Shown here one piece after another: positions 17,502 through 44,238 of a stretch of 64,000 nt of DNA. Both the position numbers and the translations under genes were made by a program. Below the pieces are notes generated by a model. The model searched no databases, was not told where the DNA came from, and saw nothing but the letters and a program-made list of their open reading frames with translations. Origin of the DNA: an uncultured Oscillospiraceae bacterium (GTDB lineage Bacteria > Bacillota > Clostridia > UBA1381 > UBA9506); assembly GCA_964447945.1 (NCBI GenBank), contig CAYUUO010000001.1:35687-99686 (forward strand). Direction: 5' to 3'. Within the stretch, counting starts at the first letter, position 1. The number at the start of each line of letters is the position of its first letter.

Positions 17502-17535
17502 AAAGGGGCTGTCGCATCAAGTCGGCAGCCCCTTT
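17502..17535 (+). terminator. Hairpin terminator after the M14 gene
   Basis: aaaggggctg (17502-17511) pairs with cagccccttt (17526-17535), followed by only a short T3 run. It begins 7 nt after the stop codon. Confidence 0.55.
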
Positions 17536-17786
17536 AGTGTGTCGATAAACCTTATATTATGTGTCAATATTCACATTTTCGTGACGAACCGCCGGCACCG
17601 GCCGGGTTACGGGGTTTCAAAGGGGCAGAGCCCCTTTGTCTGAGTTCCCCGAAGGGGAACGAAGAACCGCCCGGGCTCGGCGGGCGGAACGGGGCCCGGC
17701 TAAAAAAATTAACAGCATTTTGCAGTGAAAAAACTTTTTCGACAGTTTGAACGGGGCTGTCGCATCAAGTCGACAGCCCCGTTTTA
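17502..17786 (+). repeat. Copy A of a ~280-bp GC-rich, hairpin-dense noncoding element (inverted partner at 43962..44238)
   Basis: It lies in the 335-bp gap between convergent genes and is bounded by two near-identical 28-nt hairpins (17505-17532 and 17753-17780). The core has three GC hairpins (17618-17638, 17644-17660, 17667-17687). Its reverse complement matches 43962..44238 along the whole length. Confidence 0.85.
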
Positions 17787-17830
17787 TGATGGGTTGCTAC
17801 AGGGAACAAGACAGCCGTTTTAACCGGCAA

Positions 17831-18931
17831 TTATGAACAATCAGACAAAAGCTGATACTCATTACACATCAGCAAAAAGGCGCCGACACCAATGAGCATA
17901 TTCGTTTCAACGGGACGGTTTACATAGAATTTATAATCTCCCAAACAGGTACCGATACAGATGCGGGGCACAGATAAATAGGTTTCGCCGTCTGTTTCAA
18001 CCATTTGAATCAGGCCCTCAAACCCCTTGTCTGCGGCAGCCTTATAGCTGCTGTCCAGCCAGCCGAGGCGAACCGCCTTAGAAAGAGCGTAGGTATAAAG
18101 CGCAGAACAGGAGGATTCCAGCCAATTATCCGGGCGTGCTCCCTGATCGACAACCTGATACCACAGGCCGGTTTGCGGTTCCTGATATGTGGCCAGTGCC
18201 TTCAGCAGGCTGACGGCAACATCGATAAATTTCTTGCGTGACGGATGCTCTGTAGGCAGATATTCGGCAATATCCACGGCGGCCACGGCGTACCAGCCCA
18301 TGGCGCGTCCCCAGAAAACAGCGGAAAGTCCGGTTTCCGGATGGCTCCACGGTGCCGTTTTAGACTGATCCCATGCATGATATAAAAGACCGGTTTTATC
18401 ATCACGCATGTGCTCCCACATCAGCGTCATTTGTCTGCAAGCAATATCAATCAGCTCTTCGTCATGAAAGCGGAGCGCATAGCGGACAAGCATAGGGGAG
18501 GCCATATAAAAGCCGTCCAGCCACATTTGATTTGTGTGATGGAGCATATGCCAAAAACCGCCGTCCGGAGTCAGCTTCCAGTTTTTAAGATTGCGGATAA
18601 AAACATCCAGGGGCTTTTTATAGCGTTCGTCTCCGGTTGTTTCATATAAGTCAAACAACAGAACACCGGCCATCATGCCGTCCAGCTCGTAGTCGCGGTA
18701 GTTAACAACGGTGCCGTCGGGCGTTATCAGGCTGTCAACCCAATCCCTGATATATTGGGCATAAGCTTGCTTCCGGGTAGAATGGAAGGTTCGCTCAAAG
18801 CCGGATAAAAGAACCCCCTGGTGGTAGTGAAAGCGACCCCGCGGCGGAAGATCAGGCGCAGGGATTTTTTTCATAATGCTGTCGCAGCACAGCGCTGCGT
18901 AATCAACAGGTTTTTTATTGGTTATTTGCAC
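17831..18931 (-). CDS. GH105-type unsaturated uronyl hydrolase (YteR/YesR-like, Glyco_hydro_88 superfamily)
   Basis: It has a GTG start with the RBS aggagga 8 nt upstream. The motifs RFHYHQGVLLSG, NQMWLDGFYMASP and WGRAMGWYAVA match the YteR-type family. I see no signal peptide, so it is probably cytoplasmic. Confidence 0.8.
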   Translation of the reverse strand: MQITNKKPVDYAALCCDSIMKKIPAPDLPPRGRFHYHQGVLLSGFERTFHSTRKQAYAQYIRDWVDSLITPDGTVVNYRDYELDGMMAGVLLFDLYETTGDERYKKPLDVFIRNLKNWKLTPDGGFWHMLHHTNQMWLDGFYMASPMLVRYALRFHDEELIDIACRQMTLMWEHMRDDKTGLLYHAWDQSKTAPWSHPETGLSAVFWGRAMGWYAVAAVDIAEYLPTEHPSRKKFIDVAVSLLKALATYQEPQTGLWYQVVDQGARPDNWLESSCSALYTYALSKAVRLGWLDSSYKAAADKGFEGLIQMVETDGETYLSVPRICIGTCLGDYKFYVNRPVETNMLIGVGAFLLMCNEYQLLSDCS

Positions 18932-18966
18932 TTCAATTTCCTCCTGATGCTCTTTATGCTGATTTT

Positions 18967-18995
18967 ATTATACACAAGGGTGGGGATGCGGACAA
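18967..18995 (-). promoter_or_regulatory. Sigma-70-type promoter for the GH105 gene (TTGTCC-17-TATAAT)
   Basis: On the minus strand the -35 hexamer is at 18995-18990 and the -10 hexamer at 18972-18967. It lies about 35 nt upstream of the GTG start. Confidence 0.55.
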
Positions 18996-19043
18996 GAGTC
19001 ATTTTTTTATCCTACAGTCTTTTTATTATTAAAATACTGACCG

Positions 19044-19072
19044 TTGACGTGTCAGAACCATTGTGGTATGAT
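19044..19072 (+). promoter_or_regulatory. Orphan sigma-70-type promoter on the plus strand (TTGACG-17-TGgTATGAT)
   Basis: The -35 hexamer is at 19044-19049, the spacer is 17 nt, and the extended -10 is at 19064-19072. It diverges from the GH105 promoter. There is no plus-strand gene downstream for more than 2.7 kb. Confidence 0.5.
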
Positions 19073-19096
19073 TTGCCGCACTAAATTAATGTCGTG

Positions 19097-19176
19097 CACC
19101 TAAAAATAGCATTTTAATGCTGTTTTTAGGTGTGAAATTGTAAATTTCACACAAATGGTTTCGCAAAACCATTTGT
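19097..19176. other. Three abutting AT-rich perfect or near-perfect hairpins/palindromes
   Basis: Hairpin 1 is 19097-19132 (16-bp arms, one mismatch, loop ttta). Hairpin 2 is 19131-19151 (9-bp arms). Hairpin 3 is 19151-19176 (11-bp arms). The region is markedly more AT-rich than its surroundings. Confidence 0.7.
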
Positions 19177-19270
19177 TCAGTAGACATTCAATTAGGTAGT
19201 ATACATAGATCAAAAAGGGTTATTCTGCGACCTTTTGTGTGGCTTTAGTCCTGCAGCATGCGTCTGCGGC

Positions 19271-19309
19271 AAAAAAACAAGCGGGGCTGCAGCAAAACGG
19301 CAGCCCCGC
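19271..19309 (-). terminator. Rho-independent terminator of the AraC-type regulator gene
   Basis: The 10-bp GC stem gcggggctgc/gcagccccgc (19281-19290 / 19300-19309) is followed on the minus strand by ttgttttttt. Confidence 0.75.
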
Positions 19310-19377
19310 AAAACATATAATCAAGAATAAAATATTCTCCAATAACCGAAGGGGCTGTAGCATTGTCGACAGCCTCT

Positions 19378-21603
19378 TTATTTATTTGCACTCTTAAACT
19401 GCCCCGGCGTTACGCCCTCTAAGCCTTTGAAGGCGGCGATAAAGCCGTTGCTGTTGGTAAAGCCCACATTGGTGGCGATTTCCTTCACACTCAGATTGGT
19501 TTGCAGCAAGAGTTCCTTGGCAACGGCCACCCGGTACTTTTGAATATAGGTCGACAGCGTTTCGCCGGTTTCCTGCTTGAAAACTCTGGAAATATACTGA
19601 GGCGTCTTATTCATTTTATATCCGATTTCCGCCACGGATAGGTTCACGTTCTGATAGCTGTCCTTGATAATCTCCATAATCCGGCCGCTGATTTTAAAGC
19701 TGGCGGCCTTGTCGGAAAAATAGGTACACAGCAGCACGGCAGATTCCTTGATGTTTTCCCTGGAGGCATCCAGCGTTTGCGCGTCGGACAAATTGTCCAT
19801 CAGCTGATTCCGCAGTTCCGGCAGCGTGATGCCCTCTGAGAGGCGGAGGAGAGCCGTCACCAAATCGTAAATCAGCATGGTAGCGGCGTCGGCGGAAATG
19901 CAGCGCGCCAGATTTTTATCAAAAATTGCATCAATATATTGCTTGGCCTGCTCCGGATCACCGCTTGTGATGGCGTTGGTGATTTTGGTTTCATCCGTTG
20001 CAGAATAGCTGTACCGCGGATCAAGGGCGTCGATATCGTCAAAGGACAGAATATCCGTTTTTCCGAACATGAGCTGGTGCCGCAGCACGGTCATACATTC
20101 GTCATGGGCGTGGCTCAGCTCATAAGCACTGCTATGACTTCGGCTCAGGGATACAACGGTTTCAATATAGGCATATTCCGCCAGCTTGTCCCGGGTGTCC
20201 TTTAAAATATGTTTCAGATTTTCGTCTGTTGACTCGTCAGTTTTAATAATAAAGTAAACATCCTTATCCACAGAGCAGTCATAGGCCTCGTAAGCACACA
20301 ACAGCGTGTCCTGGGCCACGTTGCGGATGACAAACAGAACGCTTTCAATCGGCGGCTGATCACCCACGTAGTCGTTATCGGGAAACAGGCCGCTGTAATC
20401 GGATACGGTAAACATCGCCACACGGATATACGGCTTGTCGAACAGAATGTGATTTCGGGTCAGCAGTGACTCAGAACAGGCATTTTGGGGAATGTGGCCT
20501 GTCAGCAACCGCTTGAGCACCATGTTCTGCGTCAGGTTTTCGTTTTTAGTCTCCAGCTGATCCCGCTCCCGTATCAGGCTCTGGATGCTGCTGGTGATAT
20601 AGGCAAAATCGTTTTGCTCCCGCCCCTTCTTTTTATCAAACAGTGAGAGAATTGCCTGCATGGGTGTGTAGTTCTTTCGAGCCAGATAATAGGCCAGCAG
20701 GAAGCACAGCACAATACCGACGATGTTGGTCGTCAAAATGATGTTGCTCAAAGCGTTCATTTGGCTCCAATAGTTGCTGTAGGGGACAAAAAATACATAT
20801 TTCCAGCTGGTATAGCGCGAATCGGCAATCAGGACAATATACCGCTCGCCGGTTTTGCGGTCGGTGTAGGCGGCGGGATCGCCGGTAAGCGAAAAGCCCT
20901 CCACGGGGAAACCTTGATTTTTAAACAAAATATCCTCATTGCTTTGATAAATTGTCAGATTGTTTTTGGTGATATAATCGTGCTTTTCGGCCCAGGAGGC
21001 AGACAGCCGGGACATCAGCACCACGGTGTAGGCTTCACCGGCAGCCGTCCGAGCGCTCCGAACGCAAAATATAAAGGGCTGATAGATGGAATCGCGATAC
21101 ATCGCATAGTCTGCGTAAAAGGAAAAGGCGTCCTGCCGGGAAATCATATATTTCCATTCTTCGGCAGACAGATTGCCCTGGGCATGGTAGGTGTTATAGG
21201 CCAGCTCCGGTGACATGAGACTGTCAGCCGAGAGCAGGCGGCTTCGTTCCGGAAAATAAATATAAAACCGATCCACAATACCGGAAATGGCAGCCAGCCG
21301 GTTAATCTCCTGCACCTGCGGCCGGAAGTGATACAAGTGGATATCCTCCGGCGCAGCGTCCGGCATGCTGTCAAACAAAGACGCAGATACGATGGTCTGG
21401 GCGCATTGATTCAGAATGTTCAGATTCGCGTCGATGGCCCGGGCAGTCTGAACGGCGGAATCGCTCTGCATATCTGTCAGCATTTTTTTAAAGGTATTTT
21501 TATAGACAATAAAGGAAAGATTGCAAAGAAAAATGGCGACAAGGGAGATGAGGCAATAGGACAAAAGCCATTTGTATTTAACGGTCAGGGTGTTTTTGAT
21601 CAT
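19378..21603 (-). CDS. Transmembrane AraC-family one-component regulator (two TM helices flanking a ~260-aa extracytoplasmic domain, with a C-terminal AraC HTH)
   Basis: The RBS aaagga precedes the ATG. TM1 is LLSYCLISLVAIFLCNLSFIV and TM2 is IILTTNIVGIVLCFLLAYYLA. The C-terminus has YISRVFKQETGETLSTYIQKYRVAVAKELL...GFIAAFKGLEGVTPGQF. I see no receiver or kinase motifs. Confidence 0.8.
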   Translation of the reverse strand: MIKNTLTVKYKWLLSYCLISLVAIFLCNLSFIVYKNTFKKMLTDMQSDSAVQTARAIDANLNILNQCAQTIVSASLFDSMPDAAPEDIHLYHFRPQVQEINRLAAISGIVDRFYIYFPERSRLLSADSLMSPELAYNTYHAQGNLSAEEWKYMISRQDAFSFYADYAMYRDSIYQPFIFCVRSARTAAGEAYTVVLMSRLSASWAEKHDYITKNNLTIYQSNEDILFKNQGFPVEGFSLTGDPAAYTDRKTGERYIVLIADSRYTSWKYVFFVPYSNYWSQMNALSNIILTTNIVGIVLCFLLAYYLARKNYTPMQAILSLFDKKKGREQNDFAYITSSIQSLIRERDQLETKNENLTQNMVLKRLLTGHIPQNACSESLLTRNHILFDKPYIRVAMFTVSDYSGLFPDNDYVGDQPPIESVLFVIRNVAQDTLLCAYEAYDCSVDKDVYFIIKTDESTDENLKHILKDTRDKLAEYAYIETVVSLSRSHSSAYELSHAHDECMTVLRHQLMFGKTDILSFDDIDALDPRYSYSATDETKITNAITSGDPEQAKQYIDAIFDKNLARCISADAATMLIYDLVTALLRLSEGITLPELRNQLMDNLSDAQTLDASRENIKESAVLLCTYFSDKAASFKISGRIMEIIKDSYQNVNLSVAEIGYKMNKTPQYISRVFKQETGETLSTYIQKYRVAVAKELLLQTNLSVKEIATNVGFTNSNGFIAAFKGLEGVTPGQFKSANK

Positions 21604-21692: not shown

Positions 21693-21857
21693 CAGGATTT
21701 TCCTGTCAAGCGCCTGTGCTATACTTCACTAAGGCGCATTGTGCTGTCATTGGGCGTTTTCAGCGGTGGCATCTTAATTTAGTTATATTGTACCAATAAA
21801 AGGCCATATTTTCAATGTGTTGTTTTCAAATCCGATATAAATGCCAAATATTCGATA

Positions 21858-21886
21858 TTGAATTTTTTGCCGTTGTTTCTTACAAT
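21858..21886 (+). promoter_or_regulatory. Sigma-70-type promoter for the ABC transporter / surface-protein operon (TTGAAT-17-TACAAT)
   Basis: The -35 hexamer is at 21858-21863 and the -10 hexamer at 21881-21886. The hexamers are the same as in the promoter at 12506. Confidence 0.55.
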
Positions 21887-21964
21887 AATATTATAGATGG
21901 TACGACTTATCGTCTGTCAGATGAAAAACAGACAACCAATTTTTCACAGAAAGGAAAGTGTATT

Positions 21965-23539
21965 ATGAACAGAGTATGGAGACATATCGCCCTGGCTGCT
22001 GCATTGACGCTGTGTCTGTCCGGCTGCGGCGGCAAAACGTCAAACAAGGCTACAGGCGGAGAGCTGACAGCACCACAGTTGGGCGATACCTACCCGGTCA
22101 AGACGGAGGAAACTCTGACCATGTGGGCCGATGCACCGGTACACGCGTCCTACGCCAGCTATAAAGACCAGCCCTTTTATCAGGATCTGATGAAAAACAC
22201 CGGCATCAATGTGGACTTCCGGTTCCCGCCCCAGGGACAGGGTCAGGAGGCCTTTAACCTGCTGATTGCCTCCGGCAACCTGCCAGACGTGATTTTGTAT
22301 CACTGGATTCATGCTTCCGGCGGGCCGCAGAAGTTTTTAGACGAAAAATATATCATCCCGCTGAATGATGTGTTTAAAGCCTACAGTCCCAATATTACAA
22401 AGTATCTGGCCGAACATCCCGACGCCGACCGCATGATTAAAACAGACAACGGACAGTATTACTGCTATCCCTTCCTGCGCGGCGATGACTGGCTAACCGT
22501 TTACTCAGGCCCCGTTGTGCGGCAGGATCTTCTGGAAAAATTCAATATTCAGGAGCCTGTTACCTTAGACGGCTGGCACGCCATGCTGACAACCTTTAAG
22601 GATAACGGCGTGAAAATTCCGCTGACGCTTGCCAACAGCAGTTATACGCTGGCTAGCGGTGTGAACGGCTATTTTAACTTTTACATAGACGGCAGTAACG
22701 TGAAATACGGCCCGATTGAGGAGAGCTGGAAGGATTATATCAACGTTATGAATCGGTGGTATAACGAGGGACTGATTGATAAAGACTACGGCAGTCTGGA
22801 CAGCACCGTACTGAACCAGAAAATGGCCTCCGGTGACGTGGGCGCTACCTTGGGAAGCGGCAGTCAAATCGGCACATGGATGTCCTCCGGTACTAAAAAT
22901 GATCCGGCTTACAATTTAAAGGGTATTAAGTATCCGGTTCCCCAGGCGGGAATGCAGCCGGAATTTGGTCAGAAGGATAATATTTATCCCGGCTACGGCT
23001 GTGCCGCCATCACTACCAGCTGCAAAAATCTTGAACTGGCGGCCAAATTCCTGGATTATTTCTATACGGAGGAAGGGCAGCTGTTTTCCAACTTCGGTAC
23101 AGAAGGCGTCAGCTATGAAATGAAGGACGGCCAGCCCGTCTTTACCCAGGCGGTCTTTGATGATAACGGCACGGCGGCCAACATCGGCAAATACGCCTGG
23201 AGCTATTCCACAACCCTGTCCATTCAGGACAGAAGAATGTATGAGCAGCGTCTGTCCTGGGATCAGCAGAAAAAGGCCATTGATGTTTGGAATCAGACTA
23301 ACATGGCAAGCCATCTCATCCCGCCGGTGCTGCCGAACAGCGAGGAGGTTTCCGTTATGGCGGACATTACCTCGCAGCTGAGTACTTACATGGAGGAGTT
23401 TTTCTACTCATCCGTCTGCGCCAAGGAGCCGCTGAGCGACGAGGCCTTCCAGGCTTATGTGGAGAAGGTTAAGGCCCTGGGCGTCGATCAAGTTATTTCG
23501 ATTTATGAAACGGCCATAGGACGGTATAATCAACGGTAA
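21965..23539 (+). CDS. ABC transporter extracellular solute-binding lipoprotein (LplA/YtcQ-like, family 1)
   Basis: The RBS aaaggaaag precedes the ATG at 21965, and the lipoprotein signal has the lipobox LCLSGC. The ~525-aa size and the position upstream of two sugar permeases are typical of LplA-type oligosaccharide binders. Confidence 0.85.
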   Translation: MNRVWRHIALAAALTLCLSGCGGKTSNKATGGELTAPQLGDTYPVKTEETLTMWADAPVHASYASYKDQPFYQDLMKNTGINVDFRFPPQGQGQEAFNLLIASGNLPDVILYHWIHASGGPQKFLDEKYIIPLNDVFKAYSPNITKYLAEHPDADRMIKTDNGQYYCYPFLRGDDWLTVYSGPVVRQDLLEKFNIQEPVTLDGWHAMLTTFKDNGVKIPLTLANSSYTLASGVNGYFNFYIDGSNVKYGPIEESWKDYINVMNRWYNEGLIDKDYGSLDSTVLNQKMASGDVGATLGSGSQIGTWMSSGTKNDPAYNLKGIKYPVPQAGMQPEFGQKDNIYPGYGCAAITTSCKNLELAAKFLDYFYTEEGQLFSNFGTEGVSYEMKDGQPVFTQAVFDDNGTAANIGKYAWSYSTTLSIQDRRMYEQRLSWDQQKKAIDVWNQTNMASHLIPPVLPNSEEVSVMADITSQLSTYMEEFFYSSVCAKEPLSDEAFQAYVEKVKALGVDQVISIYETAIGRYNQR

Positions 23540-23553
23540 ATAACCTGTAAGGC

Positions 23554-37223: not shown

Positions 37224-37234
37224 AGGAGAAGGCA

Positions 37235-40200
37235 ATGAAAAAATATCTTTCCCTGTTCTTTCTTGCACTATGGCTTTGCGTACAAGTACCGGTGAGCGCC
37301 CAGAGCGGGGCGCTCACTGCAAAAGGCGGCTTTACCAGCCGCCTTTTATCCCGTTCGGGCTGTACTTTTCAAGCCGATATCAGCAATCCTGCCGGCGGCG
37401 AAGCAACGCTGCTGCTGATTTTTGCCAGCTACGCGGGCAGCCGTTTGCAGCAGGCGGAGGTGCGCACAATAACGGTGAACGGAACGGCAACGGCGGTTTC
37501 GGAAACGGGTGTGCCGGCTGACGCGGATACTACGCGGCTTAGTGCCTTTTTGCTGGATGATCTCACCGCGGTATCGCCCTTGTGCCGGGATGATGGCGTT
37601 TTTACGGACTATGAGCCGATTACAAATGACTACGGCAAAAGCAATTTGGTCACCGAAACAGCTGCGGCAACAGAAGCCGACCGGGCGGCCTTTACTTTGT
37701 TGCCGACACTGTCCTCCGGTGCCGATCAGGCAGTTGTCAACGGTCTGGGTGTTTTGGGCCTATTTCCCGAGGGCGGCCCCGGCCGGATTTACTGTAAGAT
37801 GGAAAAGCGTCTTGGCGCCACGGCAGTGCGCTATGAGCAATTCCGCACCCTTCGCGTGATTGCGCCGGACGGCGAGATTGTTTGCTATTATGATTTTTCA
37901 GAGTCGGCCGACAGCTTAGAAGAGCTGATTTTCACAGTGCCGTCAGGCCCGGCCGGTATCTGGACGGTGTCCTACACCGGCGGACAGAGCACCGGGGATC
38001 TGCTCACGGTGGGTCTGCCGCCGACTTGTGAGGCCTGGGGTGTCCGTGGCGAAATGAAGCTGGTATTCCCCACGGGACGGGCGGCCTCCACCTGGTATAC
38101 CTATGTGCCCCCAACCTCAACGTCCTGCGAAATTGAGACCGGCGGCTACAGCGGTGGCATTCAGCTGTATTTGCCTGCGCAGGATGCGGGGCAGGTGAGC
38201 CACGTACCAACAGCCGCCGAGGAGGAAGCGGCTGCGGCGGCAGGAGAGCCTCTGACTGAGGTGGCGCTGAAGGCCCAGCTTGTATGGGGCGAGGCAGCGG
38301 CAGATGGCCGATGCCGTTTGGATAAGCAGGATTCAACACAATATGGGCGATACTTTGATTATCGCCTTTCCGGATATACGCCGGACAGCGTTTGGAGAAT
38401 TGAAGTATCCGGCGGTGCATCGGTGGGCATGAGCAGCCTGTTGTTTGCAACGGGCATCCCTGGCCTTTTATGTCCAAGCGAGGCATCGGCACGGCTCCTT
38501 GCCGGCGGTACGGCCAGAAGCCGGGACGGCCGGCTGTTGGGCGGCGCTTATCAGGCGCAGGTGCGGGACGCCATGCTGCAGCACAAGGATGACGATTTAT
38601 CCGTACAGTTGTCGTTTCCCACATCCATTCCGGCAGAAATCAGTCCGGAGGACTACGACACAGAGGCGCTGCTTTATGGCCGGTACGGTGGATTGACGAC
38701 GCTGCTGCCCGGCCTTGAGAAGCAAAAGCTGGATTCTGAAAGCCTGTATTACGGCGCTTTTCCCGACGCCAACGATTTAAGCAATGAACAGGAAATTGAG
38801 AATTTTTGCTACGGAGGCCGATATGCCATGCATGCCACGGCGGCTTTGGCCGCGGTGGCCGGGGTGCCTGCAAAGCTGAACCCGGGCTATCATAACGAGG
38901 CGCTGGTCACCCGCAGTATGTTGGCATCCTTCTGTCATCTGGCGGCATTGGCGCCGGATTATCTGCTGCGGGAGAAAATGACGCCCCGGGGGAATTTCTA
39001 CCCCATGACCCATGTATTTTTTGTCTATCCCTCGCTGGCTGAGGCCTACGGCTTGCTCAAGGATCAGATCAGCCCGTCAGAGTCTGTTTTGTGGCGGCGC
39101 GGCCTGCTTCTGCTGGGGGATAAGCTGGCTAACTATATATCATCAGAGACCAACCAGTGGAGTGAAATCATTTACGGACATCTGCTGGTTTACCGGGCAA
39201 CCGGCGAGGAGCGGTTTCTCCGATATTTCGAGCGGGCGGCAGAGGCCATCACCCATGATAACCTGCATTGCAATGGCTCCATGGGTCAGCACAGCGCCGG
39301 ATATTATCTGGAGGAGCGGGCGCCCAGTGGCTCTTATCAGGAGCTGTCACTGCACAATATTGCGGCGGCCTATTTGATATATCGGGCAATGCCGGAGGCA
39401 AACAGCTCTCTTACAGCCGCTCTTTATGACTCCATCCGGCGAGCAGCTGTTTACGAAAGCCTGTATTGGATTCCGAACGCGGCGGGGCAGCCGGTTTCGC
39501 CCACCTCCATGAATCTGCGGGCGCCTACAGGGATGATGTCCAACTGTGGCTATCCCGGTATGTTTCTGGTGGCATTGGCAGTTCCGGAGGCCAATGGACT
39601 TTTATCCCTGTTGCCCTACAGTGCAGAAAATTACGGCTATGCCACCACAATGTCCCATGTCGCCCTGCATAATCCGGCAGTAGCGGAGCAGGTGATTCTC
39701 TGGGGTCTCGGTCAGCAGGGTACGGTTCCCTACGGTCTCAGCGGACAATGGACGCCACGTCTCTATGAGGGTTATGCCCTGACAGAGGGGATTACAGAAA
39801 CCGTAACGCCGCCGGTTCGCACCCATGCCGGTGTGTGGGATTTAGACGGTATGCTGGCGATTAAGAAGGACGGCTGGTATCTCCTGACCCATTATGCTGC
39901 GCCGGCAACCGGGGGCTCTCTGCGCAGCGGCCTCCCTGCTGCCGTTTGGCGGGAAAGCTTTGGTGCGGCTGTTTTGTCCATGCATATTTCAACGGACGCG
40001 CCGGATTACGGTCAGGCGGCATATAGCTGCTTTACGGCGGAAAAGGCAGACGGTACTGTCTGTCGCACAGCGCTGGAAAACGGTACTCTGACAGCCCGGA
40101 CGGACAGCGGCTATCAGATTACCCAGCCGCTGGAGGGGATTGGTACGGTGTGCTATACGGTAGAGATTGTTGACGAAACCCGGATGACAGTGACTGTTAC

Positions 40201-40459
40201 GGCAGATATAACAGCGGAGGATGTAACCGGCGCCTACGTGCGTCTGCCGGTCTATGAAAGCGGCGCCACCGTTTCCGGCAGTGCCGGTGTTCTGCATTAC
40301 GCCGCCGGTTCCGGCAGCCTGGAGATTCAGGCAGAGGGCGCGGCCATGGGCGATACTTTATATATGGCCAGCAGCGGCGGTCATGCCGTCAGACCCTTGG
40401 ACGTCCCGGTGACAGACGGTGTTCCCACGGTCATATCCTTTGTAGTGCCGGGGGCGTAA
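37235..40459 (+). CDS. Secreted paralog of 33783..37223 lacking SLH repeats; unrecognised family
   Basis: The RBS aaaggaga precedes the ATG, and the signal peptide is MKKYLSLFFLALWLCVQVPVSAQS. Shared blocks include VCYYDFSE, TNQWSE.I.GHL..Y.ATGE.RFL.Y.ER, GSYQELS.H and FF.YPSLA..Y.LLKD.I.P. Confidence 0.7.
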   Translation: MKKYLSLFFLALWLCVQVPVSAQSGALTAKGGFTSRLLSRSGCTFQADISNPAGGEATLLLIFASYAGSRLQQAEVRTITVNGTATAVSETGVPADADTTRLSAFLLDDLTAVSPLCRDDGVFTDYEPITNDYGKSNLVTETAAATEADRAAFTLLPTLSSGADQAVVNGLGVLGLFPEGGPGRIYCKMEKRLGATAVRYEQFRTLRVIAPDGEIVCYYDFSESADSLEELIFTVPSGPAGIWTVSYTGGQSTGDLLTVGLPPTCEAWGVRGEMKLVFPTGRAASTWYTYVPPTSTSCEIETGGYSGGIQLYLPAQDAGQVSHVPTAAEEEAAAAAGEPLTEVALKAQLVWGEAAADGRCRLDKQDSTQYGRYFDYRLSGYTPDSVWRIEVSGGASVGMSSLLFATGIPGLLCPSEASARLLAGGTARSRDGRLLGGAYQAQVRDAMLQHKDDDLSVQLSFPTSIPAEISPEDYDTEALLYGRYGGLTTLLPGLEKQKLDSESLYYGAFPDANDLSNEQEIENFCYGGRYAMHATAALAAVAGVPAKLNPGYHNEALVTRSMLASFCHLAALAPDYLLREKMTPRGNFYPMTHVFFVYPSLAEAYGLLKDQISPSESVLWRRGLLLLGDKLANYISSETNQWSEIIYGHLLVYRATGEERFLRYFERAAEAITHDNLHCNGSMGQHSAGYYLEERAPSGSYQELSLHNIAAAYLIYRAMPEANSSLTAALYDSIRRAAVYESLYWIPNAAGQPVSPTSMNLRAPTGMMSNCGYPGMFLVALAVPEANGLLSLLPYSAENYGYATTMSHVALHNPAVAEQVILWGLGQQGTVPYGLSGQWTPRLYEGYALTEGITETVTPPVRTHAGVWDLDGMLAIKKDGWYLLTHYAAPATGGSLRSGLPAAVWRESFGAAVLSMHISTDAPDYGQAAYSCFTAEKADGTVCRTALENGTLTARTDSGYQITQPLEGIGTVCYTVEIVDETRMTVTVTADITAEDVTGAYVRLPVYESGATVSGSAGVLHYAAGSGSLEIQAEGAAMGDTLYMASSGGHAVRPLDVPVTDGVPTVISFVVPGA

Positions 40460-40522
40460 GACAATAATAAAACAAAAAAGGCAATAATAAAACAAAAAAA
40501 GGCAATAATAAAACAAAATAAT
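40460..40522 (+). repeat. Three tandem 21-bp AT-rich direct repeats
   Basis: The units are GACAATAATAAAACAAAAAAG (40460-40480), GCAATAATAAAACAAAAAAAG (40481-40501) and GCAATAATAAAACAAAATAAT (40502-40522). They end 4 bp before a -35 hexamer. Confidence 0.9.
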
Positions 40523-40526
40523 GGAC

Positions 40527-40555
40527 TTGCCAAATCGATGAAAATGTGGTACAGT
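40527..40555 (+). promoter_or_regulatory. Sigma-70-type promoter for the GH88 gene (TTGCCA-17-TGgTACAGT)
   Basis: The -35 hexamer is at 40527-40532, the spacer is 17 nt, and the -10 hexamer is at 40550-40555. It lies about 55 nt upstream of the ATG at 40612. Confidence 0.5.
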
Positions 40556-40611
40556 ATAGGAGTTATCAGTATTCTTATGATTTAATGAAACTGTTTGAGG
40601 AGGACATTACC

Positions 40612-41829
40612 ATGACCTATGAGGAAGCATACAAGCTGTGCGGTGAAAAGGCACGGCTGCATATGAAAAGCATGAACGGGATTCCGTTTGAACTGGGGGA
40701 ATGCCGCGACGGCGATTATTACAAGCATGTTAAGGACAAAGAAAAGTCGGCTCTTTCGGGACGCTGGAGCTGGGTGACCTCCTTTGTAACCGGCATGGCG
40801 CCTCTTTTGTTCCAGACGGACGGGGACAGCCGTGCACTCCGCTGGGCCAACCAGTTTGCTGATGATTATCATGACAAGGTGTTCCGGCCCTACACCCAGA
40901 CTATGCATGATCTTGGCTTTTTATATCTGCCCTACAGCGTACATATGTATCAGCTGACCGGTGACAGGGGTCACCGCGACACGGCACTCCAGGCGGCCAA
41001 TGAGCTGGCTAAGCGCTTTGATTTAAACGGGCGGTATATTGAGGCTTGGTCTGAAATGAATACCTTTGAAAAGGACGGGCGCATGATTATTGATTCCTGC
41101 ATGAATCTGCCGCTGCTGTTCTGGGCCTGGAAGGAAACAGGCCATACCTTTTATCATGATGTGGCGGCGGCTCATCTGGAAACGGCCATGCGCGTTCTGG
41201 TGCGCGAGGATGCTTCCGTTTGTCACGCCTGGCGTCTTGATCCGGCCACCGGCAAGCCAACGGAGGAAGTCAACTCCTGCGGTTTTGCCAACGGCTCCCA
41301 CTGGGCGCGGGGCACGGGCTGGATGGTTTTTGGACTGGCAATCGCTTATGAATATACGAAAAATGAAACCTATCTGGATACGGCTGTTAAAGTTGCAGAA
41401 AAATATCTGGATTCTCTGGAGGACAGCCCGGTTCCTGTTTGGGATTTCCGCCTGCCCGCCGACCAGCCGGCCAAAATCTGCGGCAATGTGCCGGGGCTGG
41501 GCGCCGATTGGGATGAAAGTTTGCTCGAAAATAAAAAATATAATGTGGATACCTCCGCGGCTGCCATTATGGCCTGCGGTCTGCAGACAATTGAGCGGTA
41601 TCGGCCGTGCGACCGCTTCCATCAGCATGTAGAGGCGGCGCTGTCTGTCCTCAGCAATGAATATCTGAATACCGATCCGACGGTACCCGGTATGCTCAAA
41701 CGCTGCAACGGCCGCAACGCCTTTAGCGTTTACGGCGATTATTATTACATGCTGGCGCTGGCTATGCGCTTATATGACGTCAGAACCTGCTGGGGTTGTT
41801 CCGAGGACGCCCCGGCAGTCAACCAATAA
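40612..41829 (+). CDS. GH88 unsaturated glucuronyl hydrolase
   Basis: The RBS gaggagg sits 8 nt upstream of the ATG at 40612. The family motifs are MHDLGFLYLPYS, IIDSCMNLPLLFWAWKETG and GSHWARGTGWMVFGLAIAY. I see no signal peptide. Confidence 0.85.
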   Translation: MTYEEAYKLCGEKARLHMKSMNGIPFELGECRDGDYYKHVKDKEKSALSGRWSWVTSFVTGMAPLLFQTDGDSRALRWANQFADDYHDKVFRPYTQTMHDLGFLYLPYSVHMYQLTGDRGHRDTALQAANELAKRFDLNGRYIEAWSEMNTFEKDGRMIIDSCMNLPLLFWAWKETGHTFYHDVAAAHLETAMRVLVREDASVCHAWRLDPATGKPTEEVNSCGFANGSHWARGTGWMVFGLAIAYEYTKNETYLDTAVKVAEKYLDSLEDSPVPVWDFRLPADQPAKICGNVPGLGADWDESLLENKKYNVDTSAAAIMACGLQTIERYRPCDRFHQHVEAALSVLSNEYLNTDPTVPGMLKRCNGRNAFSVYGDYYYMLALAMRLYDVRTCWGCSEDAPAVNQ

Positions 41830-41846
41830 CAACAGGGAGGCTTTCC

Positions 41847-43952
41847 ATGTTACAAAAGGAACAAAATTACGAGTTTAGAAAGCGGATGCTGGCTATACAT
41901 GAAAAGGATGTCCGGGATCCTGCGCTTTTGCCCCAGGCAGATGAATTTGTCATCGAGGACGGACTGTATGTGGTTGTGCCGGAAACAGCCAGCGACGTTA
42001 TCCTGACGGCAGGCCGGGATTTTATTGACTACCTTTTCACCTCCATGGGGATTTCCGCCATGCTGAAAAAGGGCAGTGCGCCTGCGGAAGCGAAAAAAAT
42101 CACGGTGGATCTGGCTGCCGATACCGGCGTCGATCTGTTAGATGCAGCTTCCTATAAGGGCTTTCGTATTGACGTTTTACAGTCGATTGCCATAAACGCC
42201 TTTGACGACCGGGGTGCGGCACAGGCTCTTTACTATCTTGAGGAGTGTATGACCCTGCGCCGTGCGCCCTTTATTCCGCAAAAAACGGTGACGCAAAAAC
42301 CCATGTTCTCACCGATGATGGTTCACTCCGGCTACGGTCTGGACGAATACCCCGACGAGCATCTGGCAGCCATTGCCCACGAGGGGCGTGACGCTATCCT
42401 GATTTTTGTCGAGGATGTGGACACAACGCCCTATGGCTATCTGGATTTTAACGAGCTGATTTACCGGGCGGCTAAATACGGCATCGACGTATATGCCTAC
42501 AGCTATTTGGAAAGTGACATGAGCCCGGAGGCTGAGGGCGCCGAGGCGTATTATGAAAAGCGCTACGGCCGGCTGTTTGAAAAGTGCCCAGGTCTTGCGG
42601 GCATCAGCCTGGTGGGAGAATCTGTGGGCTTTCCCAGTAAGGATCCGCATGTTACCCCCAGCCATAAAAGTGATCTCGACGCCGACGGTCTGCCCGTGGG
42701 TAAGCCCCGGGCCGGGTGGTGGCCCTGTGAGGACTATCCCCGCTGGCTGAATCTGGTTAAGGGCATTATTCGGAAGCATAAGCCAGATGCAGACATCATT
42801 TTCTGGACCTATAACTGGGGTCGCCAGCCTGCCGAGGCACGGCTCCGGCTGATTGAATCGCTGCCTACGGATATTAGCCTGATGGCGACCTTTGAGATGT
42901 TTGAAGGCTATTCCGTTGAGGACTGCCGCGAATTTATTGCGGACTATTCTCTGAAATTTGAAGGCCCCGGCTTTTACTTCCGGTCAGAGGCGGAGGCCGC
43001 GGCCAAACGGGGCATACGCCTATATGCTATGACCAATACCGGCGGCCTGACCTGGGATATCGGCGTTATTCCCTATGAGCCCATGCCCTATCAGTGGATG
43101 CGGCGCTACGCGGCCATGGCTGAGGCTCACGATCAATGGGGTCTTTGCGGCATTATGGAATCCCATCACTATGGCTTCTATCCGTCCTTTATCAGCAAGC
43201 TGTCCAAGTGGATTTTCAACGATTCGAAAACGCCTATGGAAACGCAGCTGCAAAGAGTGCTCGTCAGCGAATACGGCGAAACGCACGCGCCGGCGGTAGA
43301 TGAGGCGCTCAAGCTCTGGAGCGAGGCCATCCGGCACTATACCCCCACGGATAACGACCAGTACGGCGCTTTCCGCATCGGGCCGGGCTTTCCCTTTTCC
43401 TTTTTAATACCCGTGAAGAACCAGGAAGCGCCCTATGCCATGTTTGGGAATCGTATTTATCATTCTTATTACACCCACTGGTATTCTCATGAGGTTATGT
43501 TTGATAAGGGTACGCCTGTGGCTGTCCGCCTGGCGGCGGAGATCCGCTCCTTAGAGGTTATGCTGGATTATATGCAGCGCGGTGTGGATATTTTAGAAAA
43601 GCTGGATGGGAAAAACGACAGACTGCTGTATCTTGAAAATTTGGGACGGTATATCGTTTGCTGCATACAAACCGGTATTCACGCAAAAGAGTGGTTCAAG
43701 CTGCTCAGCCGCTTTAACAATGCGGAGACGAACAGTGAGGCGCTGGAGATTTTGGACAGTATGGAGGCGCTGCTGCAGCGGGAAATCAGCAATGCAGAGG
43801 CCGCCATTCCGCTGGCGGAACAGGATTCCCGATTGGGTTGGGAGCCCAGCATGGAATATATGGCGGACGCGGAGCATATCCGCTGGAAGATTCGGCAGCT
43901 TCATTATGTCATTAATACGGAAATTGCCGCGCAACGGCGGGCGGCGCATTAA
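41847..43952 (+). CDS. Cytoplasmic 701-aa protein of unknown function; possibly a glycoside hydrolase-like TIM-barrel enzyme
   Basis: The RBS agggagg precedes the ATG at 41847, and I see no signal peptide. The N-terminal stretch SYKGFRIDV...INAFDDRGAAQALYYLEE resembles the small N-domains of GH20/GH67/GH115-type enzymes, which is weak by-eye evidence only. Confidence 0.6.
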   Translation: MLQKEQNYEFRKRMLAIHEKDVRDPALLPQADEFVIEDGLYVVVPETASDVILTAGRDFIDYLFTSMGISAMLKKGSAPAEAKKITVDLAADTGVDLLDAASYKGFRIDVLQSIAINAFDDRGAAQALYYLEECMTLRRAPFIPQKTVTQKPMFSPMMVHSGYGLDEYPDEHLAAIAHEGRDAILIFVEDVDTTPYGYLDFNELIYRAAKYGIDVYAYSYLESDMSPEAEGAEAYYEKRYGRLFEKCPGLAGISLVGESVGFPSKDPHVTPSHKSDLDADGLPVGKPRAGWWPCEDYPRWLNLVKGIIRKHKPDADIIFWTYNWGRQPAEARLRLIESLPTDISLMATFEMFEGYSVEDCREFIADYSLKFEGPGFYFRSEAEAAAKRGIRLYAMTNTGGLTWDIGVIPYEPMPYQWMRRYAAMAEAHDQWGLCGIMESHHYGFYPSFISKLSKWIFNDSKTPMETQLQRVLVSEYGETHAPAVDEALKLWSEAIRHYTPTDNDQYGAFRIGPGFPFSFLIPVKNQEAPYAMFGNRIYHSYYTHWYSHEVMFDKGTPVAVRLAAEIRSLEVMLDYMQRGVDILEKLDGKNDRLLYLENLGRYIVCCIQTGIHAKEWFKLLSRFNNAETNSEALEILDSMEALLQREISNAEAAIPLAEQDSRLGWEPSMEYMADAEHIRWKIRQLHYVINTEIAAQRRAAH

Positions 43953-43961
43953 GTGCCCGCC

Positions 43962-44238
43962 GAGGCTGTCGCATTTAGTCGACAGCCTCTCAGACTGTCG
44001 AAAAAGTTTTTTTCTGCAAAATAGTGTTAATTTTTTTAGCCAGGCCCCGTTCCGCCCGCCGAGCCCGGGCGGTTCTTCGTTCCCCGTCGGGGAACGAAGG
44101 CAAAGGGGCTCTGCCCCTTTGAAACCCCGTAATCAGGCCGTGTGGGCAGGGCTCGGCAAGAAAATGTAAATATTTACGCATCATAAAAGGTTTATCGATA
44201 CGCTGAGGGACTGTAGCTTTGCTACGGTCCCCTTTTTC
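43962..44238 (-). repeat. Copy B of the ~280-bp GC-rich hairpin-dense element, inverted relative to copy A
   Basis: The reverse complement aligns with 17502..17786 from the AT-rich arm (tcgataaacctt...acattttc), through the three GC hairpins (44101-44121, 44075-44099, 44052-44072), to the cgacag/hairpin end (43962-43989). It also lies between convergent genes. Confidence 0.85.

What the first reader, a model, noticed from the sequence alone, without database searches (positions are those of the whole stretch)
17502..44238. The two element copies form an inverted pair that exactly brackets the glycan-utilisation locus
Copy A lies immediately outside the first gene of the locus (GH105), and copy B lies immediately outside the last gene (the 701-aa unknown). 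They are mirror images: the AT-rich arm faces outward and the cgacag/hairpin end faces inward at both borders. About 26.2 kb lies between them.

I see three possible meanings:
- The pair marks the boundaries of an acquired or mobilisable island.
- The pair is a substrate for homologous-recombination inversion of the whole locus.
- The pair is a set of insulators or terminators isolating the locus from flanking transcription.

No recombinase or transposase is present in the window, so any mobility would depend on factors encoded elsewhere.
Basis: partly seen in the sequence, partly recalled or inferred. Interest (0 to 1): 0.65.

Follow-up and report, generated by a model that had tools for sequence, protein, structure and literature searches.

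The report
Structured intergenic repeat flanking glycan locus
Two inverted copies of a ~250-nt hairpin-rich element really do flank a 26-kb sugar-utilisation locus, but they belong to an undescribed family of structured intergenic repeats also scattered through Monoglobus pectinilyticus, so they are more likely small RNA/terminator modules in two convergent gene gaps than the ends of a mobile island.

Summary
Copy A (17503-17785, +) and copy B (44236-43959, -) are an inverted pair. They are 84% identical over ~250 nt and 95% over the 108-nt three-hairpin core, and similarity drops to 42-50% just outside. The longest exact inverted match is 43 nt against 14-17 in shuffles. They lie 45 nt and 7 nt beyond the stop codons of the GH88/105 gene and the 701-aa gene.

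The island reading is not supported. There is no GC step, no recombinase or transposase domain and no target duplication. The element's two-hairpin core also occurs at about six unrelated intergenic loci in ~300 kb of Monoglobus pectinilyticus, as singletons, tandem arrays and inverted doublets. Both hairpins covary, and no Rfam family matches.

Both window sites are gaps between convergent genes. Each copy reads: outer terminator hairpin, AT-rich arm, three GC hairpins, A/T tail, inner hairpin.

My best reading is two paralogous members of a lineage-specific structured repeat or small-RNA family that also supply terminators. The bracketing comes from where they sit.

Inversion by homologous recombination is physically possible but untested. 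One caveat remains: the same inward-facing arrangement around gene blocks occurs twice in Monoglobus, so a cassette-bounding role is not excluded.

The parts
17503..17537 (+). Copy A, outer hairpin (Ho-A): AAAGGGGCTGTCG-CATCAAGT-CGGCAGCCCCTTT. It is a near-copy (28/30) of the inner hairpin of the same element. Read on the - strand it is followed by TTTGTTGTTTT. It lies 8 nt after the M14 stop codon.
   Evidence: In strain SRR16327210 (L008) the two differences vanish, making it identical to the inner hairpin.
17538..17606 (+). Copy A, AT-rich outer arm. It has weak promoter-like hexamers (TCGATA - 17 nt - TGT-CAATAT), and TCGATAAACCTT is conserved in both copies.
   Evidence: 76% identical to B. 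The promoter scan found no consensus site; the promoter reading is inference.
17607..17714 (+). Copy A core: hp1 17618-17638, hp2 17644-17660, hp3 17667-17687, then the conserved tail AACGGGGCCCGGCTAAAAAAATTAAC. The part shared with Monoglobus is 17637-17720.
   Evidence: folds; alignment and covariation; CM R1, 87 bits, E 8e-23.
17715..17750 (+). Copy A, A/T-rich tail ending in CTTTTTCGACAGT. Its CGACAG repeats the 3' half of the inner stem, so it could form an alternative pairing with CTGTCG.
17751..17785 (+). Copy A, inner hairpin (Hi-A): CGGGGCTGTCG-CATCAAGT-CGACAGCCCCG + TTTTAT. It lies between the element and the GH88 stop at 17831 and is shaped like a bidirectional terminator.
43959..43991 (-). 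Copy B, inner hairpin (Hi-B): GAGGCTGTCG-N8-CGACAGCCTC, 7 nt after the stop of the 701-aa gene. Relative to Hi-A it carries a compensatory G-C to A-T change. Its loop matches Hi-A better in direct orientation (6/8) than in inverted orientation (3/8).
43992..44024 (-). Copy B, A/T-rich tail.
   Evidence: 81%.
44025..44132 (-). Copy B core (hp1, hp2, hp3 at 44052-44072, conserved tail). CM match at 44019-44102.
   Evidence: 90 bits, E 1e-23; 95% identical to A.
44133..44202 (-). Copy B, AT-rich outer arm.
44203..44236 (+). Copy B, outer hairpin (Ho-B): GGGACTGTAGC-TTT-GCTACGGTCCC + CTTTTTCTAG on the + strand. This is an intrinsic-terminator-like site for transcripts leaving the locus. It is only ~66% similar to Ho-A.
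   Evidence: (flagged, 11 pairs).
17831..21603 (-). Left transcription unit of the bracketed locus: AraC-family regulator (19378-21603) and GH88/105 (17831-18931), both on the - strand and ending toward copy A.
21815..43952 (+). Right transcription unit(s): ABC solute-binding protein and two permeases, SLH-domain and unknown large proteins, a GH88-like protein and the 701-aa unknown, all on the + strand and ending toward copy B.

Best explanation
A and B are two paralogous members of a lineage-specific, previously undescribed family of structured intergenic elements. The family is defined by a conserved two-hairpin core: hp2, then hp3 (CGCCCG-GGCYCGG-CGGGCG), then the tail RAAC-NGGG-YCYGGC.

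Each copy sits in a gap between two convergent genes and is built as a self-contained module. The outer hairpin ends the outside gene and, in the opposite direction, carries the T-run for transcripts leaving the locus. The AT-rich arm is promoter-like. The body has three GC hairpins and an A/T tail. The inner hairpin is shared with the last gene of the locus.

I think the most likely working is at the RNA level. Either each copy gives a ~200-nt small RNA transcribed inward from the AT arm and stopped at the inner hairpin, or the same structure is carried on the 3' end of the outward mRNAs. Either way it also provides termination and insulation for all four converging genes.

The inverted arrangement follows from position. 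The locus consists of two divergent transcription units, so both of its ends are convergent gaps, the places where such insertions or duplications are tolerated. The 26-kb block is not a mobile unit defined by the pair.

Shown: the repeat, its anatomy, family membership, covariation of the hairpins, and dispersal in a related genome. Inferred: transcription, its direction, and any regulatory role.
For: The repeat is real and sharply bounded. Both sites are convergent gene pairs, and the locus is two divergent units.

The core is homologous to a multi-copy family in Monoglobus pectinilyticus. There are 9 places in one 176-kb chromosomal fragment and 8 records / 22 places with a Monoglobus unit as query. 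A covariance model finds ~6 loci in ~300 kb beside unrelated housekeeping genes.

Structure is conserved through compensatory change. hp3 is paired in 13/13 sequences with C-G in 7 and U-A in 6 at its base; hp2 has two-sided changes at 10 of 12 pairs; the covariation score is 0.334 against 0.160 in shuffles, with 0 of 500 shuffles reaching it. There is a further GCCCG/CGGGC to GCTCG/CGAGC swap in L023 and a G-C to A-T swap between the inner hairpins of A and B.

Some Monoglobus units have TATAAT ~20 nt upstream and a 3' hairpin that varies in sequence but keeps its pairing, as small RNA genes do. The folds are far more stable than shuffles (z -5.5 and -6.7). There are terminator-like signals at the outer hairpins.

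There is no GC shift, no recombinase and no TSD. The window organism is a Clostridia relative of Monoglobus (PEPCK 70% aa, the best hit in the collection).
Against: No expression data exist. The promoter scan finds no consensus promoter in either arm, and the strand could not be decided from folding energies. Only the ~70-nt core is shared with Monoglobus; hp1, the AT arm, the tail and the flanking hairpins are known only from these two copies.

The source genome could not be scanned. Dispersal within it is inferred only from contig breaks that fall earlier than two copies predict.

The near-identity of the two hairpins that flank copy A (31/31 in one strain) looks like a duplication made by an insertion event, which a plain 'RNA gene' does not explain.

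The same inward-facing bracket recurs around two paralogous MBL-fold gene blocks in Monoglobus. That is more than pure positional coincidence would predict.
Confidence: 0.55

Rival explanations
1. The element is a small non-autonomous mobile element (MITE/REPIN-like) that inserts into or next to terminator hairpins. A and B are two independent insertions, or one copy seeded the other. The 26-kb block itself does not move.
For: Copy A is flanked by direct repeats of a 31-nt hairpin. They are perfect in strain SRR16327210, whose contig ends exactly where a k=31 graph breaks at a 31-nt repeat. There are TIR-like ends, TGTGTCGATAAA versus the reverse complement ACTGTCGAAAAA. The family is multi-copy in Monoglobus, and T-type units are inverted doublets that fold as one long hairpin, like REPINs. 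Same-strain contigs break 11-54 nt earlier than two copies predict, hinting at extra copies. Relatives lack the element at the M14 and GH88 3' ends.
Against: Copy B has no such direct repeat; its outer and inner hairpins differ. No empty site was actually seen. No transposase or RAYT is linked, and the one IS200 tnpA found in Monoglobus has unrelated hairpins. Monoglobus copies occur mostly as local tandem clusters rather than scattered identical copies. The core 21-mer was absent from two large collections, apart from chance hits, and the six-frame ORF search found nothing.
Confidence: 0.2
2. The pair is a substrate for homologous-recombination inversion of the whole 26-kb locus. The two orientations may coexist or may have been exchanged in evolution.
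For: The inverted arms have exact blocks of 43 and 32 nt and a core that is 95% identical. Both junctions are convergent gaps, so inversion would break no gene or operon. The core is more similar than the arms, as gene conversion between the copies would produce. Synteny with relatives ends at the M14 3' end.
Against: There is no site-specific invertase. The exact homology is short for efficient RecA exchange (my own knowledge: efficiency falls steeply below ~50-100 bp). No isomer was observed, since contigs break in the repeat and are uninformative. The high core identity is equally explained by selection, because hp2 and hp3 are conserved across genera. Inversion would have no obvious regulatory consequence.
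Confidence: 0.1
3. The pair marks the ends of an acquired or mobilisable cassette. The family elements would act as long terminal inverted repeats, recognised by a factor encoded elsewhere, so that whole gene blocks between inward-facing copies are moved.
For: The same inward-facing arrangement (-> block <-) occurs three times: the window (26 kb), Monoglobus record 742 (2.4 kb) and record 745 (4 kb). The two Monoglobus blocks carry MBL-fold paralogs that are 52% identical. The two flanking copies are of the same subfamily in each case. M14 and GH88 are not neighbours in any relative.
Against: There is no GC or other compositional step, no TSD and no recombinase in the window or in the Monoglobus blocks. 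Solitary copies and tandem arrays are as common as pairs. In record 742 the right-hand copies are closer to a solitary copy elsewhere than to their left-hand partners. No presence/absence polymorphism was seen.
Confidence: 0.08
4. The elements are only compound transcription terminators or insulators that isolate the locus from its neighbours. Their similarity reflects duplication of a good terminator region.
For: There are strong hairpins at both ends of each copy, with T-runs after the outer hairpins in the outward direction in both copies. hp3 is also flagged as terminator-like in the outward direction. The position between convergent genes fits.
Against: In Monoglobus the conserved core lies at sites that are not operon ends (tandem arrays, upstream of genes) and is not followed by T-runs there. 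About 250 nt with three internal hairpins is far more than termination needs. Covariation across genera points to a specific structure.
Confidence: 0.07

Closest known systems
REP / BIME and REPIN elements (repetitive extragenic palindromes; REPIN = inverted REP doublet mobilised by RAYT transposases)
   Same: GC-rich palindromic units confined to intergenic space, often after operon ends. They are multi-copy, and occur as singletons, clusters and inverted doublets that fold into one long hairpin, as the T-type units do. They can stabilise or terminate upstream transcripts.
   Different: The window element is ~250 nt with three different hairpins plus AT-rich arms, not a 20-40-nt palindrome. 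No RAYT gene was found next to any copy, and the one IS200-family tnpA seen has unrelated hairpins. Copy number in the source genome is unknown. REP biology is from my own knowledge.
BOX elements of Streptococcus pneumoniae; ERIC/IRU; Correia elements of Neisseria (modular structured intergenic repeats)
   Same: Modular composition: the core module and a separate 3' module occur together or alone in Monoglobus. Sizes are 100-300 nt, secondary structure is stable, location is between genes, and the elements can carry promoter- or terminator-like signals.
   Different: There is no sequence similarity. Correia elements have defined TIRs and a TA duplication, which are not seen here. Copies here cluster locally in tandem rather than being evenly scattered. 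The comparison rests on my own knowledge, not on a tool result.
Tandemly duplicated small regulatory RNA genes (e.g. LhrC1-5 of Listeria, Qrr, csRNAs)
   Same: Monoglobus units are 200-270 nt and repeated head to tail. Some have a TATAAT box ~20 nt upstream and a 3' hairpin that keeps its pairing through sequence change. The window copies have the layout terminator - AT-rich arm - structured body - terminator.
   Different: There is no expression evidence, no consensus promoter in the window copies, no match to any of 4227 Rfam families, and no identified target or seed region.
Composite transposons / genomic islands bounded by inverted repeats
   Same: Two inverted copies of one sequence exactly flank a functionally coherent 26-kb gene block.
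   Different: The repeats encode nothing. There is no transposase or integrase, no target-site duplication, no tRNA and no compositional difference.

Membership tests
Genomic island / composite transposon | A recombinase, integrase or transposase within or next to the unit | tested here: not met
   Pfam scans of 36 window ORFs found none. Several large ORFs have no Pfam hit, but they are SLH or glycan-enzyme-sized proteins.
Genomic island / composite transposon | Target-site duplication or att-type direct repeats just outside the two ends | tested here: not met
   The sequences outside the two outer ends are not direct repeats. Identity beyond the ends is 42-50%.
Genomic island / composite transposon | Compositional difference from the flanks, or insertion at a tRNA | tested here: not met
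   GC is 0.47-0.58 inside and 0.46-0.55 outside. There is no tRNA or tmRNA in the window.
Genomic island / composite transposon | Presence/absence of the whole block at the repeats in related strains | tested here: inconclusive
   Relatives at 69-84% aa have M14 or GH88 in other contexts without the element, but they are too distant to serve as empty sites. Same-species contigs break inside the repeat.
MITE (non-autonomous transposon) | Terminal inverted repeats | tested here: inconclusive
   TGTGTCGATAAA versus the reverse complement ACTGTCGAAAAA match at 9-10 of 12 in A and 8 of 10 in B. That is short and could be chance. The CTGTCG motif is also the hairpin stem.
MITE (non-autonomous transposon) | A short target-site duplication at every copy | tested here: not met
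   Copy A is flanked by a 28-31-nt duplicated hairpin, far longer than typical TSDs. Copy B has none.
MITE (non-autonomous transposon) | Many near-identical dispersed copies in one genome | not testable with these tools
   The source genome is absent from the searchable collections. The only evidence is indirect, from contig-end positions. In Monoglobus the copies are diverged and locally clustered.
REP / REPIN | Extragenic palindromic units, frequently as inverted doublets | tested here: met
   All copies are intergenic. T-type units consist of a forward core plus a diverged reverse core and fold as one hairpin.
REP / REPIN | An associated RAYT (IS200/IS605-like Y1 transposase) flanked by the same palindromes | tested here: not met
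   The only IS200-family tnpA seen (L027 18017-18496) is flanked by different hairpins. There is none in the window. Whole genomes were not searchable.
Site-specific invertible segment (invertase-driven switch) | Short inverted repeats plus a nearby serine or tyrosine invertase, usually flipping a promoter | tested here: not met
   There is no invertase domain. The segment is 26 kb with outward-pointing 3' ends at both borders, so no promoter is switched.
Intrinsic (Rho-independent) terminator | A GC-rich hairpin directly followed by a T-run on the transcribed strand | tested here: met
   Ho-B is flagged on the + strand. Ho-A on the - strand is followed by TTTGTTGTTTT, and Hi-A on the + strand by TTTTAT (read; not flagged by the scan; Ho-A has one C.A mismatch on the - strand). 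Hi-B has no T-run in the inward direction.
Any Rfam RNA family | A score at or above the family's gathering threshold | tested here: not met
   There are zero matches in the window and none in the Monoglobus regions apart from tRNAs. Only chance-level hits appear at E up to 10.
Structured non-coding RNA (generic) | Base pairs kept through compensatory substitutions across homologues | tested here: met
   In 13 sequences, hp3 is 100% paired with one fully compensatory pair (7 C-G, 6 U-A). hp2 has 10 of 12 pairs with two-sided changes. No shuffle of 500 reaches the observed score, and slid controls are lower. Caveat: DNA-level hairpins would give the same signal.
Structured non-coding RNA (generic) | Evidence of transcription with defined ends | not testable with these tools
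   No transcriptome data are available. The promoter scan is negative in the window copies.

The most novel reading that the evidence does not exclude
The conserved two-hairpin core defines a new class of element in the Monoglobus lineage that works in inward-facing inverted pairs to delimit gene cassettes. Examples are a 26-kb glycan locus here and two paralogous MBL-fold gene blocks in M. pectinilyticus. The element would act either as long structured terminal repeats for an unidentified hairpin-recognising recombinase encoded elsewhere, or as paired convergent small-RNA genes that jointly control the enclosed block.
Probability: 0.1. Interest if true: 0.7.

Novelty: new member of a known kind. 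Interest (0 to 1): 0.38.

Why it matters
If the best reading holds, the main result is corrective. An eye-catching inverted bracket around a polysaccharide-utilisation locus is not evidence that the locus is a mobile island. The repeat is one more case of structured intergenic elements accumulating in convergent gene gaps.

The positive by-product is a candidate new RNA or repeat family. It has a two-hairpin core with compensatory changes, absent from Rfam, shared between an uncultured Clostridia bacterium and the human-gut pectin degrader Monoglobus pectinilyticus, where it forms tandem arrays and inverted doublets. Such families are poorly catalogued in Clostridia. They matter for assembly (every short-read contig broke in it), for genome rearrangement, and possibly for regulation of glycan-utilisation genes.

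If the recurrent inward-facing bracketing is not coincidence, it would point to a new way of delimiting or moving gene cassettes in gut Firmicutes.

Tried and rejected
1. Exact-pattern scans with the core 21-mer GGGGAACGAAGAACCGCCCGG in genome contigs and metagenome contigs gave only an unrelated planctomycete terminator (four orthologous contigs) and two coding hits. In hindsight the pattern was too specific: it misses the Monoglobus variants.

2. I ran a six-frame pseudo-protein of the element through the 5.8-billion-protein search, hoping for spurious ORF calls over other copies. Nothing came back.

3. There were no hits in viral contigs, phage records or the literature for the motif string.

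4. I first read contig L008 as an element-free 'empty site'. I rejected that. The contig ends exactly one base plus 30 bases into a 31-nt sequence that would be repeated if that strain carries the element with two identical hairpins, which is the expected k=31 break. It shows hairpin homogenisation, not absence.

5. The closing stem of the predicted multibranch fold (GCCGGG/CCCGGC) is not kept in copy B (G-C becomes U.U), so I dropped it.

6. The small ORFs inside the element (63/64 aa on one strand, 33/32 aa on the other) are frame-shifted or lack an RBS, so I judged them non-coding.

7. A link to the ~108-aa hypothetical genes next to Monoglobus copies turned out to be a Monoglobus-internal segmental duplication with no counterpart in the window.

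8. A link to the IS200/IS605 tnpA in Monoglobus was rejected because its flanking hairpins are unrelated.

9. No homologue of the 701-aa protein, and no Monoglobus record among the ten GH88 matches listed (31 more records were not shown), turned up in the collection that holds the Monoglobus pieces. So no orthologous locus was available for a boundary comparison.

10. Strand choice from folding energies or alifold was inconclusive.

Full report
**1. The observation**

The repeat finder on the whole window returns exactly two inverted pairs, and they adjoin each other: 17599-17738 / 44001-44140 (140 nt, 91%) and 17531-17590 / 44150-44209 (60 nt, 80%). There are 26,262 nt between them. Reading and aligning both regions shows one element of about 250 nt, or about 283 nt with the outer hairpin.

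Identity by segment:
- outer hairpin 66%
- AT-rich arm 76%
- three-hairpin core 95% (103/108)
- A/T tail 81%
- inner hairpin 63% (stems 9/10 identical, loop different)
- 40 nt beyond either end: 42-50%, which is background

The longest exact inverted match is 43 nt, against 14-17 nt in shuffled windows.

**2. What is bracketed**

Pfam annotation gives the following layout.

Inside the pair:
- a GH88/105 hydrolase (17831-18931, -) and an AraC regulator (19378-21603, -)
- on the + strand, an ABC solute-binding protein, two permeases, several very large unknown or SLH-domain proteins, a second GH88-like protein, and a 701-aa unknown (41847-43952 after correcting the start by its RBS)

Outside on the left:
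- another glycan-type cluster (heparinase II/III-like, lectin-like, AraC)
- a PGA_cap protein and an M14 peptidase ending at 17495 (+)

Outside on the right:
- a 429-aa GDSL-like protein (44276-45565, -)
- the HydABC hydrogenase genes, then truB, ribF and others

The bracketed block therefore consists of two divergent transcription units. Both of its ends, and both neighbours, point their 3' ends at the elements, so A and B each occupy a gap between convergent genes. No tested ORF has a recombinase or transposase domain, and there is no tRNA. GC content does not differ inside and outside.

**3. Anatomy**

In the orientation of copy A (+) the element reads as follows.
- Outer hairpin: GGGGCTGTCG-N8-CGGCAGCCCC.
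- AT-rich arm: TCGATAAACCTT...CACATTTTC.
- hp1: CAAAGGGGC-AGA-GCCCCTTTG.
- hp2: GTTCCCC-GAA-GGGGAAC.
- hp3: CCGCCCG-GGCTCGG-CGGGCGG.
- Conserved tail: AACGGGGCCCGGCTAAAAAAATTAAC.
- A/T stretch ending in CTTTTTCGACAGT.
- Inner hairpin: GGGGCTGTCG-N8-CGACAGCCCC, followed by TTTTAT.

Both strands fold far better than shuffles (z = -5.5 and -6.7).

For transcription leaving the locus, the outer hairpin is followed by a T-run in both copies. B is flagged by the scan. A was read from the sequence; its stem has one C.A mismatch on that strand. hp3 is also flagged as terminator-like in the outward direction. No consensus sigma-70 promoter is found. The conserved TCGATA-17 nt-(C/A)AATAT in the arm is only a weak candidate.

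The GGCTGTCG-N8-CGRCAGCC hairpin occurs three times in the window and nowhere else: outer A, inner A, inner B. The inner hairpins of A and B differ by a compensatory G-C to A-T change. Their loops match better in direct orientation (6/8) than in inverted orientation (3/8). I attribute that to loop flipping between the stem arms, but this is not shown.

No Rfam family matches. The short ORFs across the element are not conserved in frame.

**4. Same species, other samples**

Exact-protein look-ups found short-read (Logan) contigs of the same strain in SRR16327184. Four contigs (L007, L011, L013, L014) have zero mismatches to the window. All four end inside the element, at 17635, 17703, 44114 and 44018. 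The assembler therefore treats the element as a repeat.

Within the window the only repeated 31-mers are 17607-17638 and 17654-17696, with their partners in B. With two copies only, the contigs should have reached 17636, 17667, 44103 and 44072. Three of the four stop 11-54 nt early. That suggests the sample holds further A-like and B-like sequences: extra copies elsewhere, or strain variants. Inversion isomers would add no new 31-mers and cannot explain it. This evidence is indirect.

A second sample (SRR16327210, L008) differs from the window at three positions in 1,962 nt. One is a silent change in M14. The other two make the outer hairpin of A identical to the inner one. I first took this for an element-free site. 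But the contig ends exactly where a k=31 graph must break if the 31-mer AACGGGGCTGTCGCATCAAGTCGACAGCCCC occurs twice. The simpler reading is that this strain carries the element flanked by perfect 31-nt direct repeats.

Why copy A is flanked by a duplicated hairpin while copy B is not remains unexplained. It is the best single argument for an insertion-type origin.

**5. Relatives**

The lineage is poorly sampled. M14 has only three homologues at E <= 1e-20 (69-77% aa), and GH88 has nearest relatives at 78% and 84%.

In these relatives:
- M14 is followed 34 nt later by an amidohydrolase and a serine dehydratase subunit (L009, L010), or by an ordinary terminator and a convergent gene (L025).
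- GH88 lies next to MatE and an SBP (L012), or next to an ordinary terminator and an unrelated convergent gene (L024).
- None has the element.
- The relatives' neighbour genes are absent from the window.

So the M14 | A | GH88 junction is specific to this lineage. The relatives are too distant to serve as empty sites.

**6. The family**

The two large DNA scans with a 21-mer from the core found only chance matches. A sensitive blastn against the plasmid collection, however, hit 'plasmid 18' of a Monoglobus pectinilyticus assembly at nine places. That record is plainly a chromosomal fragment (valS, spo0A, efp and so on; 37.5% GC).

With Monoglobus units as queries the family appears in 8 records at 22 places. 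Some places carry only a separate 3' module, so the family is modular.

The part shared by all sequences is hp3 plus the tail RAAC-NGGR-YCYGGC...CAAA.TRA. 'M-type' units also share hp2.

On 13 sequences:
- hp3 is paired in every one, with a fully compensatory base pair (7 C-G, 6 U-A).
- hp2 shows two-sided changes at 10 of 12 pairs.
- The covariation score is 0.334 against 0.160 in shuffles (0 of 500 reach it), and slid controls are lower.
- A further copy replaces GCCCG/CGGGC with GCTCG/CGAGC.

A covariance model of this 84-nt core finds only A (87 bits) and B (90 bits) in the window; the next hit scores 14 bits. In about 300 kb of Monoglobus it finds about six loci:
- a four-unit tandem array upstream of a gyrB-like gene
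- three tandem units and, 2.4 kb away, two inverted units just downstream of spo0A
- a solitary unit after a mazF-type gene
- a small cluster after a gltB-like gene
- a lone reverse copy 4 kb from that cluster

T-type units are themselves inverted doublets (forward core plus diverged reverse core) that fold into one long hairpin. Some M-type units have TATAAT about 20 nt upstream and a 3' hairpin that changes sequence while keeping its pairing. None matches Rfam, IMG/VR or the literature string search.

PEPCK of the window organism is 70% identical to that of M. pectinilyticus, the best match in that collection. The window organism is thus a Clostridia relative, not a close one.

**7. Interpretation**

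None of the usual island hallmarks is present. I therefore read A and B as two paralogous members of a lineage-specific structured intergenic family that sit in the two convergent gaps at the ends of the locus.

Their layout is terminator hairpin, AT-rich arm, structured body, terminator hairpin. That is the layout of a small stand-alone transcription unit squeezed between convergent genes, and it also supplies terminators for all four converging genes. Whether the functional molecule is an inward-transcribed small RNA, a 3'-UTR structure on the outward mRNAs, or DNA hairpins could not be decided.

Homologous-recombination inversion of the block is physically possible (43- and 32-nt exact blocks) and would be harmless, but nothing here shows that it happens.

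**8. What keeps the finding from being entirely ordinary**

The inward-facing arrangement (-> block <-) seen in the window recurs twice in Monoglobus. It occurs around a 2.4-kb block and a 4-kb block that both contain an MBL-fold hydrolase, and those two proteins are 52% identical paralogs. The T-type doublets have the same polarity on a small scale.

Three of three blocks in the same one of four possible arrangements is suggestive (about 1/64 if orientations were random). But the sample is tiny, solitary copies and arrays are equally common, and in one case the partners are not each other's closest relatives. I give a cassette-delimiting role about 10%.

**9. Verdict**

- Observation: confirmed.
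- Interpretation: partly supported. The terminator/insulator component is supported, the island reading is not, and inversion is untested.
- The element is a new member of a known kind (structured intergenic repeat or candidate small-RNA family), undescribed in Rfam.
- Interest: moderate to low.

Noticed in passing
L019 6200-7500 (M. pectinilyticus NZ_OY725742.1 ~153.2-154.5 kb): Four tandem repeats of a unit encoding a 22-aa hydrophobic peptide (MEYVYIIIFMIVFITLIESIKK) with a strong RBS and structured flanks. It looks like a tandem type I toxin cluster. It lies directly upstream of the three M-type units and is not annotated in the record.
   Followed up: no
L021 4560-5300; L022 5000-5260; L023 5680-5720 and 9540-9600: The 3' module of M-type units (GACTGCGCGCC...hairpin...CCCTACCGATGCTTGC) occurs on its own. 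It is paired with nearby units carrying the complementary motif (GAACATCGGTAGGGC + hairpin) in repeated arrays with small annotated ORFs on the opposite strand. This suggests RNA-RNA pairing partners (antisense or type I TA-like modules).
   Followed up: no
window 17504 and 17525 versus L008 (SRR16327210): Two of the only three differences between two strains over 1,962 nt fall in the outer hairpin of copy A and make it identical to the inner hairpin 248 nt away. This suggests gene conversion between the two hairpins, or very recent duplication.
   Followed up: partly
L001 4879-4920; L003, L004, L005 (Planctomycetota MAG and three metagenome contigs): An intrinsic terminator in a planctomycete shares 40/48 nt with the element core (GGGGAACGAAGAACCGCCCGG-TCTCGGC-AACGGGGCCGGGC). 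There the 5' arm of 'hp3' pairs with the tail instead. The same alternative pairing (CCGGGC with GCCYGG, using G.U in Monoglobus) is possible in all family members. The similarity is probably chance between GC-rich palindromes.
   Followed up: partly
window 57468-57605 (also 54291-54332 and 58585-58626): A degenerate 12/18-nt periodic GCT/TCT-rich repeat (direct-repeat family D1, 10 copies of 42 nt). Eight overlapping copies lie at 57468-57605, just downstream of the PEPCK gene and upstream of the SLH-protein gene. It is either a low-complexity Ala/Ser-rich ORF (57297-57608) or a non-coding repeat.
   Followed up: no
window 34707-34780 and 37829-37902: A 74-nt direct repeat at 77% identity inside the adjacent 1146-aa (SLH) and 1074-aa genes. 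This indicates they are tandem paralogs inside the locus.
   Followed up: no
window 40474-40518: Overlapping 21-mer repeats in the 86-nt gap between the 1074-aa gene and the GH88-like gene. This is probably a palindromic terminator or attenuator inside the long operon.
   Followed up: no
L025 (SRR20784064) versus window 14890-17496: In a relative with M14 at 76% nt identity, the AraC end is joined almost directly to M14. The PGA_cap gene present in the window, L009 and L010 is missing, and M14 appears split into 40-aa and 197-aa calls.
   Followed up: no
NZ_OY725726-745 in the plasmid collection: At least nine 'plasmids' of the M. pectinilyticus TSDC17.2-1.2 assembly were seen among accessions NZ_OY725726-745 (52-368 kb). 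The five whose gene tables I read (726, 728, 739, 742, 745) are chromosomal fragments carrying housekeeping genes (valS, dnaE, atp operon, spo0A). They are mislabelled as circular plasmids, which can mislead plasmid-based analyses.
   Followed up: partly
window 43930-43960: The stop codon of the 701-aa gene lies in the loop of an extra GC hairpin (GGCGGGC-N9-GCCCGCC) immediately before the inner hairpin of copy B. The 3' end of this gene therefore runs through two consecutive hairpins.
   Followed up: no
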